Assembly: GCF_006345805.1 (NCBI RefSeq) | Contig: NC_043012.1 | Location: 52,204,001 to 52,268,000, forward strand | Direction: 5' to 3' | From: Octopus sinensis | Lineage: Eukaryota | DNA length: 64,000 nt | Part shown: piece by piece, positions 4,234-54,305 of the stretch | Position numbering within the stretch: the first letter of the stretch is position 1 | Layout: the number at the start of each line of letters is the position of its first letter | Position numbers and translations under genes: made by a program | The notes under the pieces: model-generated | What the model saw: the letters and a program-made list of their open reading frames with translations, nothing else | Database searches by the model: none | What the model was told of the DNA's origin: nothing

Positions 4234-5961
4234 ATATATTTAAGTATATATGTGTGTGTGAGTATGTTCTATGTACATACATAATACATAGACATTTAGA
4301 TGTATACATTTGAATTTATGTACATATGCATGCATCAGTAAATCTGTTTGCTACAATCTTACCCAAATTTCAGGAAGCCAAGTATTACTGCAAACTTCAC
4401 ACATAAATGACTACTTTCTCTCATTACTTGAAGCAGTGTCTACGACAGATTTCATTTCCTTCTCTGCTGCAGATATTGCTTTTAGAAAGGAAAGGACTTT
4501 ATAAAGTCATCACCGTCCAATATGAACATAAAGTATGTATGCCATTGATCGCAGCGGTATTAGAAACGGATATACAGAATGCAAAGGCAGCAGCTGAGTT
4601 GAGTTGAGAGGATACCGGACGTCTATGACAGTAGATTCCTTAGTTTACGTTCGGTTATTGAACTTGTTTTATTCATGAACATCTGATTTGTGTTATCTAG
4701 CAGTAATATAGACAACATTGGTTATGCGCGGATCTTATTTACAAGCTTGTGTTGAATCTAATATATTCGGTTTCTTTATTATTTGAAATTTAAATATTTT
4801 TCAGACGGTTCTTCGGTTGCAGTGACCTCAGTAAATTCATCTAATTATTCATCTAATTAATAGATTGAGAGACAAATTTAGTCCACTTGTGATATTTGGC
4901 TTGTGTCGCCAAACATCATTTGCAGACTTTAGAATGTTTGGATAAATTATTGAATTCTTCTTTGGATAAAGGAATCAATGACTTGTCAGGCAAAGCTATT
5001 CATGCAATTAGTTCAATTAAGTAGGTCATTCCTTGCAGTGCTCTATATCGACAGCAATTATTTACCATGCATTTCTGTAAAGAAGACGACAGAGGGTTGT
5101 ATCCTAAAGTATTGAAATTGAAGTTTCTGTAATGTAATATCTTCGAAAAGAAAAATAACTTTTAAAAGAAAAACATAATAAATTCATAAATCTTACAACT
5201 GTATAACTATTGATTTTGCCTTGTTCTCCTGTTTAATATGCTTATTCACTTAGAATATAAAATCATACACATGTTTACACACACAAACACAAGTATATAC
5301 ATATACATGCGTATATATTATACATATACACATATATATATATGTATACGTATTATATATTTGTGCGTGTGTGTGTGGAGAGAGAGAGAGAGAGAGAGAG
5401 AGGAGACTTAAATACAGATAATAAAAGAAAGAAGAATGCTAATTCCAACGGCAACGTATATAATGATGCTACAAATAAAATATGAAGAGCTAACTCAGAA
5501 ATTTTGAAGGGAGGTCGCTCAGCAGTAGCAATCAAATTTCCCTCAGATATCATTGTTTCGAACTACATAGGGCAGGAATGTTTTGCGTAGTCTAAAGAGA
5601 AACGGATGTGATAATAGCTTGAGAATTCTCATTAATCAGCGGTATGCAGGTATCATCACCACTCAGGAGTGTCCATAGACGTATAACAGTGTTATTGCAA
5701 TGCAACACATGATCATTAATTATATATCAAAGAGACAATGAAATCTACAATTTTTAGATAAACAAATTATTTCGTTAATTACTTACTTAAACTTCACTTC
5801 ATGGCTACCATACAAGTTTTCAAGAAATAAACGACAATTTTACGAATTTCATAAATTCATAGGTACTAACTATGTTATATATTTAGTGTATATATCATAT
5901 ATAGTACATTATTTACATTATTTAAAATTGACGGATATTTGTCCATATATTTTTTGCTGTT

Positions 5962-6007
5962 AACTCAACGTTTCGGCTGATATACTCTCCAGCCTTCATC
6001 AGGTGTC
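5962..6007 (-). ncRNA. Minimal type I hammerhead ribozyme motif (Penelope-like)
   Basis: Minus strand reads GACAC-CTGATGA-A-GGCTG(gagagtatat)CAGCC-GAAAC-GTT-GAGTT. This gives an intact core, a 5-bp stem II, a palindromic AACGTT stem III and 4/5 stem I pairs. Confidence 0.75.
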
Positions 6008-6093
6008 TTAGGGAAATTTCGAACCTGTGATCTTATTCCTAGGGTATTTTACCATGTTGTTGTTGTTGTTGTTATTATTATTATTATTTATTA

Positions 6094-6138
<45 letters not shown>

Positions 6139-6222
6139 CTTTATTAATGTCATTATTATTATTATTCAGGTCACTACCTGGAATCCAACCCGGAATCTTG
6201 GGTTTAGTAGAAATTTCCTCAA

Positions 6223-6268
6223 GACACCTGATGAAGGCTGGAAGGTATATCAGCCGAAACGTTGTACT
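6223..6268 (+). ncRNA. Minimal type I hammerhead ribozyme motif (Penelope-like)
   Basis: GACAC-CTGATGA-A-GGCTG(gaaggtatat)CAGCC-GAAAC-GTT-GTACT. The core and stem II are intact; stem I is decayed in this copy. Confidence 0.7.
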
Positions 6269-6385
6269 AACAGCAAAGAAGATGAGGACAAATATCCGTC
6301 ACTTATAAATAATGTAAATAATGTACATAATTCCTCACCTTTTAAATATAGAACTGTATTATCATATATAGTGTATATTATATAT

Positions 6386-6606: not shown

Positions 6607-7203
<597 letters not shown>

Positions 7204-54052: not shown

Positions 54053-54305
54053 TTTGTTTACATTATTTACAACTGACGGATATTTGTCTTCATTTTGTTT
54101 GTTGTTAAAACAACTTTTCGGCTGATATACCCTCCAGCCTCCATCAGGTGTTTTGGGGAAATTTCGAACTTGGGTTCTCATTCCTAAGGTATTTTTCGAT
54201 ATTGATATCATTATTATTATTATTATTATTCAGGTCTCTGCCTGGAATCGAACTCGGGATCTTGGAGTTAGTAGCCCGCGCTCTTAACCAAGACGCCATG
54301 TGCCC
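54053..54305 (-). mobile_element. SINE family H: complete tRNA-like head + (AAT)n + hammerhead-bearing tail
   Basis: Minus strand reads GGGCACATGGCGTCTTGGTTAAGAGCGCGGGCTACTAACTCCAAGATCCCGAGTTCGATTCC (A and B boxes), (AAT)n, then ACAC-CTGATGG-A-GGCTG..CAGCC-GAAAAGTT (mutated hammerhead). Confidence 0.85.

What the first reader, a model, noticed from the sequence alone, without database searches (positions are those of the whole stretch)
5893..6372. Single insertion with an inverted duplicated tail: hammerheads on both strands inside one 13-bp TSD
Seen: TATCATATATAGT brackets the whole unit. The left part is a minus-strand family H copy truncated inside its tRNA head, and the right part is a plus-strand tail with ~33 extra terminal bases. 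The ~115-bp arms are inverted repeats, each with an intact CTGATGA/GAAAC core. Established: PLE insertions often carry a partial inverted terminal repeat, whereas L1 twin-priming inverts sequence without duplicating the tail at this length. Inference: the architecture independently supports PLE-type mobilisation. Transcription from either side would give both a long hairpin and a ribozyme.
Basis: partly seen in the sequence, partly recalled or inferred. Interest (0 to 1): 0.75.

Follow-up and report, generated by a model that had tools for sequence, protein, structure and literature searches.

The report
Two-armed Penelope insertion with tRNA promoter

Summary
In detail: a 13-bp direct repeat brackets two head-to-head 117-nt arms, one with a 33-nt extension. 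It is the family norm. Head-to-head pairs make up 8 of 12 family loci in 1 Mb sampled blind. Of 44 pairs, 39 have one long and one short end, and 28 carry a target duplication of 11 nt or more (controls 0.9%). This is the published Penelope (PLE) architecture.

The family is not a separate SINE. Head, microsatellite, hammerhead and tail are the pseudo-LTR and ORF start of a 2.6-kb RT-encoding Penelope element; the tRNA-like head follows the ORF end in 28 of 31 copies found by protein search. Most arms that reach the head stop at its start (30 of 32), and the sense strand lacks T4 runs, so Pol III transcription is likely but untested. Arm geometry favours two separately primed cDNAs, probably from one template.

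At this locus both hammerheads have a broken stem I and fold into the hairpin, so cleavage is unlikely. No empty site was found. This scan already noted the tRNA-headed family on other DNA many times. The locus is ordinary; the promoter is the interesting part.

The parts
5893..5905 (+). Left target-site duplication (13 bp; last 2 nt also match the element's short end)
5904..6020 (-). Left arm: pLTR / ORF-start segment ending at the 'short' 3' end (tail position 117)
5962..6007 (-). Minimal type I hammerhead motif, core intact, stem I mismatched at the second pair after the predicted cut site
   Evidence: pairing read by hand
6021..6061 (-). Spacer of the pLTR; holds the inferred start codon of the PLE ORF in other copies, mutated here
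6062..6164 (-). (AAT)n/(AAC)n microsatellite between head and spacer, variable in length among copies
6165..6210 (-). 3' part (positions 32-77) of the tRNA-like head; A box lost by truncation, B-box-like motif at 6180-6190 with one core change
6210..6326 (+). Right arm: inverted, 5'-truncated copy; joined to the left arm with 1 nt overlap at 6210
6223..6268 (+). Minimal type I hammerhead motif, core intact, stem I reduced to 2 pairs next to the core
   Evidence: pairing read by hand
6327..6359 (+). 33-nt PLE 'tail' extension ending at the 'long' 3' end; in full copies it continues in frame into the RT ORF
6360..6372 (+). Right target-site duplication (13 bp; first 4 nt also match the element's continuation)
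54054..54305 (-). Second family copy in the window: single arm, full head, short end, hammerhead core mutated, no clear TSD

Best explanation
[quoted passage not shown] Shown: arms, TSD, two fixed 3' ends, continuity with an RT ORF on both sides, head placed between ORF end and hammerhead, 5' ends piling up at the head start, no fixed T4 run on the sense strand. Inferred: (1) the element's protein nicks both target strands; (2) one nick primes reverse transcription at the 'short' internal site and the other at the 'long' site about 33 nt further 3', probably on the same RNA region; (3) both cDNAs end early or run off the RNA 5' end and are joined head to head; (4) RNA that starts at the tRNA-like head gives the many short, SINE-like copies. 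This copy has lost the A box and start codon and has damaged ribozyme stems, so it is likely inert except as a possible double-stranded RNA hairpin in read-through transcripts.
For: One event: 8 of 12 family loci in 100 blind 10-kb stretches are head-to-head, against about 0.3% expected from a density of 12-13 loci per Mb (my arithmetic). 39 of 44 pairs are long+short, 21 of 25 among pairs not selected with the long query. A TSD of 11 nt or more (at most 1 mismatch) flanks 28 of 44 pairs against 17 of 1892 cross-locus controls. PLE identity: the tail runs on into an ORF; near-full copies are 2.6 kb with RT PF00078 and telomerase RT as best PDB match (E 0.002); ORF-bearing insertions show the same long+short arms with 12-14 bp TSDs. 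Head inside the element: 28 of 30 loci found with the ORF-end DNA and 28 of 31 ORF ends found by protein search. Two primers: the long arm reaches further 5' in 16, the short arm in 18, tie in 6 of 40 pairs, which no single fold-back explains. Same template: paired arms share 0.74 derived sites against 0.30 between loci (34 pairs, 0 of 5000 permutations); 4 of 5 partners of ORF-bearing arms also run into the ORF against 2 of 32 otherwise (P 0.001). Pol III: A- and B-box-like motifs (consensus boxes recalled), best match to a tRNA-Arg(TCT) of this genome (z 7.1), 30 of 32 tail-selected arms stop at -12 to +8 of the head, zero T4 runs in three 2.6-kb copies against 4.0 expected from synonymous shuffles (P 0.0085), while 68 other long frames show 254 against 222 expected. 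Literature: PMC8557442, PMC3846280, PMC11167929.
Against: No empty site was seen: 5 of 7 runs laid hold the filled left junction and 2 stop short of it. 16 of 44 pairs lack a TSD of 11 nt or more, and only 2 of the 5 complete blind pairs have one. The 13-mer is AT-rich and lies beside TA repeats. Neither ARAGORN (window) nor Rfam (4 loci with full heads) calls the head a tRNA, and only 20 tRNA sequences of 6 amino acids were compared. A short palindrome sits at the head start and could itself cause the 5' pile-up. T4 depletion is modest (P 0.04 with a Markov model). 2 of 6 blind arms that reach the head run on into the ORF. Shared variants could come from gene conversion between arms. No family model confirmed the GIY-YIG domain; it rests on recalled motifs. 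In vitro, PAc showed no difference in start site between strands (PMC11167929).
Confidence: 0.75

Rival explanations
1. An independent tRNA-derived SINE, assembled from a tRNA head and a PLE tail, that borrows the PLE protein.
For: Short copies begin at the head and outnumber ORF-bearing ones in blind and tail-selected samples. Short master copies could well retrotranspose in trans, so part of the family may behave as a SINE.
Against: The head lies at a fixed place behind the ORF end in 28 of 31 protein-selected copies, and head-spacer-tail also precede the ORF start. No sequence specific to short copies was found.
Confidence: 0.15
2. One insertion, but the inverted arm arises by fold-back of a single cDNA (self-priming at a palindrome) and the tRNA-like segment is a passive captured piece under a Pol II promoter.
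For: A palindrome spans the head start and many junctions lie on it; self-priming at palindromes is proposed in PMC3846280; D. virilis Penelope has a LINE-like internal promoter and an intron (PMC2377424, passages).
Against: Fold-back makes one arm a nested copy of the other. Here the short-ended arm reaches further 5' while the other carries the 33-nt tail, and this holds in 18 of 40 pairs. It does not explain the T4 cut-off (20 T3 runs, no T4) or arms that stop at the head start while the partner ends elsewhere.
Confidence: 0.2
3. Two independent insertions that happened to land head to head, with a chance AT-rich 13-mer.
For: Arms differ by 11%; the 13-mer is low in complexity; PLEs are reported to insert near existing copies (PMC6765202, passage).
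Against: Each arm is 8-9% from the family consensus and they share derived sites, so 11% fits decay after one event. Pair frequency, the long+short rule and the TSD excess cannot arise by chance adjacency. The junction shows no second TSD.
Confidence: 0.03

Closest known systems
EN+ Penelope/Poseidon PLEs: Pen2a_Av of Adineta vaga (PMC3846280, passages) and the general PLE layout (PMC8557442, passages incl. Fig. 2 legend)
   Same: Inverted 5'-truncated copy at the 5' end, a 30-40 bp tail at one end only, TSD around the whole unit (9-10 bp in Adineta), palindrome at the pLTR 5' end, pLTR overlapping the ORF start.
   Different: TSDs here are mostly 11-14 bp; the pLTR contains a tRNA-like segment and a microsatellite; pLTR-only two-armed copies are very numerous.
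PAc, Poseidon of Anolis carolinensis (PMC11167929, parts 1-2 of 4 read)
   Same: Hammerhead overlapping the ORF start; two internal RT start sites 30-40 nt apart inside the first 172 nt of the ORF (here about +120-138 and +165 from the inferred ATG); both target strands cut and extended in vitro; AT-rich targets.
   Different: No tRNA-like segment is mentioned in the parts read; no strand preference of start sites in vitro, whereas genomic pairs here are one long plus one short in 39 of 44.
Sm-alpha / Sj-alpha SINE-like elements of schistosomes (seen only through the review PMC6765202, passages; the primary paper was not held)
   Same: Pol III promoter followed by a hammerhead in a short repeat.
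   Different: Described as non-coding tandem SINE-like repeats; here the same layout is the terminal repeat of a coding element. No sequence comparison was made.
TRIMp3: Cassandra, Helenus, Ajax (PMC10886601, passages)
   Same: A small-RNA-derived Pol III promoter inside a terminal repeat.
   Different: These are non-autonomous LTR elements of up to 1.3 kb; the paper argues autonomous partners must use Pol II. Here the repeat belongs to a 2.6-kb coding PLE.
L1 twin priming (recalled, not looked up)
   Same: Two primers from the two nicked strands; inverted product inside one TSD.
   Different: L1 inverts the 5' part without copying the 3' end twice; here both arms copy the same region from start sites about 33 nt apart.

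Membership tests
EN+ Penelope-like element | Single ORF with a telomerase-related RT | tested here: met
   PF00078 in 2 of 5 pieces scanned, one over cut-off; telomerase RT best in PDB, E 0.002; all copies seen are broken
EN+ Penelope-like element | C-terminal GIY-YIG endonuclease | tested here: inconclusive
   No Pfam or NCBIfam hit; conserved C-terminal domain with GIY-YIG-like and Cys/His motifs in 13 aligned sequences, motif identity recalled
EN+ Penelope-like element | pLTRs in direct or inverted orientation overlapping the ORF start | tested here: met
EN+ Penelope-like element | Optional 30-40 bp tail at one end | tested here: met
   33 nt here; 39 of 44 pairs long+short
EN+ Penelope-like element | Minimal hammerhead with palindromic stem III in the pLTR | tested here: met
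   Core in 74 of 115 tail copies, with 4-bp stem I in 54 of 115; no Rfam hit
Penelope/Poseidon clade | RT phylogeny groups with Penelope/Poseidon | not tested
   No tree with named references; clade guess rests on recalled N-terminal motifs and C-terminal EN position
tRNA-derived SINE | tRNA-related head with A and B boxes | tested here: inconclusive
   Box-like motifs and z 7.1 to tRNA-Arg(TCT); not called by ARAGORN or Rfam
tRNA-derived SINE | Head is absent from the autonomous partner; only the 3' tail is shared | tested here: not met
   Head follows the ORF end in 28 of 31 copies
tRNA-derived SINE | Transcribed by RNA polymerase III | not testable with these tools
   Indirect only: 5' pile-up, T4 depletion
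Active hammerhead ribozyme (this locus) | Core plus stems I and II able to form | tested here: not met
   Stem I broken in both arms; whole unit folds as a long hairpin
Non-LTR retrozyme | Tandem non-coding units each with a hammerhead | tested here: not met
   Head-to-head pair, not a tandem array; definition from bioRxiv 10.64898/2026.07.22.740005, parts 1-2 of 5

The most novel reading that the evidence does not exclude
A protein-coding Penelope element whose entire 2.6-kb RNA is made by RNA polymerase III from a tRNA captured in its pseudo-LTR, and whose enzyme dimer copies one RNA region twice, one protomer from each of two fixed start sites and one per nicked strand, so that the element spawns tens of thousands of SINE-like hairpins of its own 5' end.
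Probability: 0.35. Interest if true: 0.8.

Novelty: new variant of a known kind. Interest (0 to 1): 0.5.

Why it matters
The locus itself is a textbook Penelope scar. The family matters in two ways. First, the one-long-one-short rule with symmetric 5' ends gives a genomic constraint on the unresolved second half of PLE integration, testable in the existing in vitro PAc system. Second, a coding retroelement driven by a tRNA-type promoter would blur the LINE/SINE division and raise the question of how an uncapped RNA is translated. At roughly 30,000 loci (12-13 per Mb, extrapolated), two-thirds of them inverted, the family is also a large potential source of double-stranded RNA; that was not tested.

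Tried and rejected
Empty site: 7 distinct runs laid; 5 hold the filled left junction, 2 contigs stop short; the right flank was skipped as repeat, so a joint could not have been seen. No RNA holder was listed for the flank; this says nothing about expression. Rfam gave only microRNA-type hairpin matches below gathering score, treated as chance. Local folds of each hammerhead were not significant (z -1.96 to 0.36). Single-armed copies mostly lack a long TSD (2 of 16 with 10 nt or more), so no TSD rule is claimed for them. An outside control for T4 depletion failed: the metagenome scan gave 1 distant, broken locus, and the protein search in the genome returned only the same family. Identity with the published octopus SINEs OR1/OR2/OK (names recalled; OR2 named in PMC4758252) could not be tested for lack of sequences. 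PMC108972 and PMC4795812 were not held. Rows dropped from the blind count: one 73% head-only hit (L250) and five 28-35 nt hits to one short stretch of the ORF query. Five duplicate loci were removed before the pair counts. Notebook entry 3 holds provisional figures (9 of 13 loci, 7 isotypes); the corrected ones are 8 of 12 and 6 amino acids.

Full report
Observation. The 13-mer occurs at 5893-5905 and 6360-6372 and nowhere else in the window. Between the two copies lie a minus-strand arm (5904-6020) and a plus-strand arm (6210-6326), 117 nt and 89% complementary, a spacer, an (AAT/AAC)n run and the 3' part of a tRNA-like head, all on the minus strand, and a 33-nt extension of the right arm. 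Each arm is 8-9% from the family consensus and they are 11% from each other. The genome is a 2.7-Gb animal genome; earlier AI notes call it likely an octopus, which I did not test.

Chance. In 100 stretches of 10 kb taken at fixed coordinates (999,500 called bases), 12 held family sequence and 8 of the 12 were head-to-head; all 5 with both 3' ends intact had one long and one short end, 2 of them with a TSD of 11 nt or more. At 12-13 loci per Mb, chance adjacency within 500 bp in that orientation is about 0.3% (my arithmetic). Among 90 non-duplicate loci from three DNA searches and the first blind sample, 44 had two 3' ends head to head (this locus included): 39 long+short, 2 long+long, 2 short+short, 1 intermediate. 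Leaving out loci found with the long query gives 21 of 25. A TSD of 11 nt or more with at most one mismatch flanks 28 of 44 pairs, against 17 of 1892 cross-locus controls. Contigs of four public runs show many unrelated flanks starting at 6356-6359, confirming the fixed long end. These searches return top hits, so only the blind sample is unbiased.

What the family is. Some copies continue past the long end into an ORF. Searching with that continuation and with the ORF end gave near-full copies of about 2.6 kb. They carry an RT (PF00078; telomerase RT as best solved relative, E 0.002) and a conserved C-terminal domain with GIY-YIG-like motifs (recalled, no family model hit). All are broken. 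The ORF end is followed by a short linker and then the tRNA-like head in 28 of 30 loci found by DNA (four are near-identical duplicates and one is the query) and in 28 of 31 ORF ends found by a protein query. ORF-bearing insertions show the same long+short inverted layout, with 12-14 bp TSDs in several. So head, microsatellite, spacer, hammerhead and tail are the pseudo-LTR and first codons of an autonomous Penelope element, and this locus is two truncated pieces of it.

Mechanism of the inversion. If one cDNA folded back, one arm would be nested in the other. At this locus the short-ended arm reaches further 5' while the other arm has the tail. Over 40 pairs the long arm reaches further in 16, the short in 18, with 6 ties (automated boundaries are rough in pairs with large unassigned gaps). 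Two separately primed cDNAs fit better, one from each nicked strand, joined at their ends (1 nt overlap here). In vitro the anole element PAc cuts and extends both strands and starts at two internal sites that bound the tail (PMC11167929, parts 1-2 of 4). Two results suggest one template: paired arms share 0.74 derived sites against 0.30 between loci (34 pairs, 0 of 5000 permutations), and 4 of 5 partners of ORF-bearing arms that reach the head start run on into the ORF, against 2 of 32 tail-selected arms (P 0.001, small n). Gene conversion between arms could give the first result.

The head. It has A- and B-box-like motifs at tRNA spacing (box consensus recalled). Its best match among 20 tRNA sequences of 6 amino acids from this genome is tRNA-Arg(TCT), 50 identities in 78 columns, z 7.1, next best 5.9. 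ARAGORN and Rfam do not call it. Of arms that reach the head start, 30 of 32 tail-selected, 32 of 33 head-selected and 4 of 6 blind ones stop within 17 nt upstream of it. Three 2.6-kb copies have no T4 run on the sense strand (two are near-duplicates); one has 20 T3 runs and no T4; synonymous shuffles expect 4.0 (P 0.0085) and a Markov model 3.2 (P 0.04); 88 copy segments (66 kb) hold 13 T4 runs, none shared by more than 4 of about 22 copies. Sixty-eight other long frames, many not genes, show 254 observed against 222 expected. T4 is the Pol III terminator (established knowledge). Pol III transcription is therefore likely but indirect; a palindrome at the head start is a rival cause of the 5' pile-up.

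The ribozymes. The motif is a minimal type I hammerhead with a palindromic stem III, the kind reported to cleave weakly and only as dimers (PMC4209133, passages). Across 115 tail copies the core is intact in 74 and stem I as well in 54. Here both cores are intact but stem I is mismatched in both arms, the motifs are on opposite strands, and the unit folds into one long hairpin on either strand (-180.5 and -173.0 kcal/mol). Hammerhead cleavage was not needed for PAc insertion in vitro.

Age and empty site. The filled left junction is present in runs labelled with two other organism codes whose flank differs by up to about 3%, so the insertion is old. No empty site was found in 7 runs; 2 were uninformative.

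Comparison with what is known. The inverted 5'-truncated copy, the one-sided 30-40 bp tail and the TSD are described for PLEs (PMC8557442 and PMC3846280, passages); the second paper was a lead from note e1-9514361. D. virilis Penelope has a LINE-like internal promoter (PMC2377424, passages). Pol III promoter plus hammerhead is known in schistosome SINE-like repeats (PMC6765202, passages), and small-RNA promoters in terminal repeats of non-autonomous LTR elements (PMC10886601, passages). I found no paper describing a tRNA-derived segment in the pLTR of a coding PLE in ten searches (listings, plus the passages named). Repbase, Dfam, subscription journals and supplements were not seen.

Earlier notes. 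I reached the tRNA-in-pLTR reading, before searches showed that the scan had noted it on many other copies in this and other genomes, including the lack of T runs (e1-10336567). These notes are not independent support.

Verdict. Observation confirmed. One Penelope-type insertion, about 0.95. Family as the pLTR of a coding PLE, about 0.9. Two separately primed cDNAs, about 0.7. Pol III use of the head, about 0.6; for the whole coding RNA, lower. Active ribozyme at this locus, about 0.1. New variant of a known kind; interest 0.5.

Noticed in passing
window 54054-54305 (-): Second family copy: single arm, full head, short end, hammerhead core mutated, no clear TSD.
   Followed up: partly
L016, L018, L033, L041, L133 (upstream of the spacer): Another retroelement's 3' end sits in the (AAT)n run of several copies; L016, L018 and L033 share about 670 bp. 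L041 resembles an R4/Dong-type microsatellite-targeting LINE (recalled). This may explain head-to-spacer gaps of 700-900 bp.
   Followed up: no
L022, L027, L077, L066, L114 (head start): A short palindrome spans the first bases of the head; many inverted junctions are near-perfect fold-backs centred on it.
   Followed up: partly
L194:4759-5256 (-), L093, L091, L246: Pieces of a second, distant PLE-like RT family (motifs recalled); these are not depleted of T4 runs.
   Followed up: partly
L163-L166, L191, L192: One near-full copy with both arms and an exact 12-bp TSD occurs with the same flanks on a chromosome and three small contigs: segmental duplication or assembly redundancy.
   Followed up: no
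L062:1240-1936: Long+long pair in which both arms share the same unusual variant ends; no TSD found.
   Followed up: no
window 5523: Three of four runs laid carry 8 extra bases here relative to the window, so the window likely holds a small deletion allele.
   Followed up: no
window 6635-6900: Start of a different, very common repeat just right of the element (resembles an abundant cephalopod SINE, recalled).
   Followed up: no
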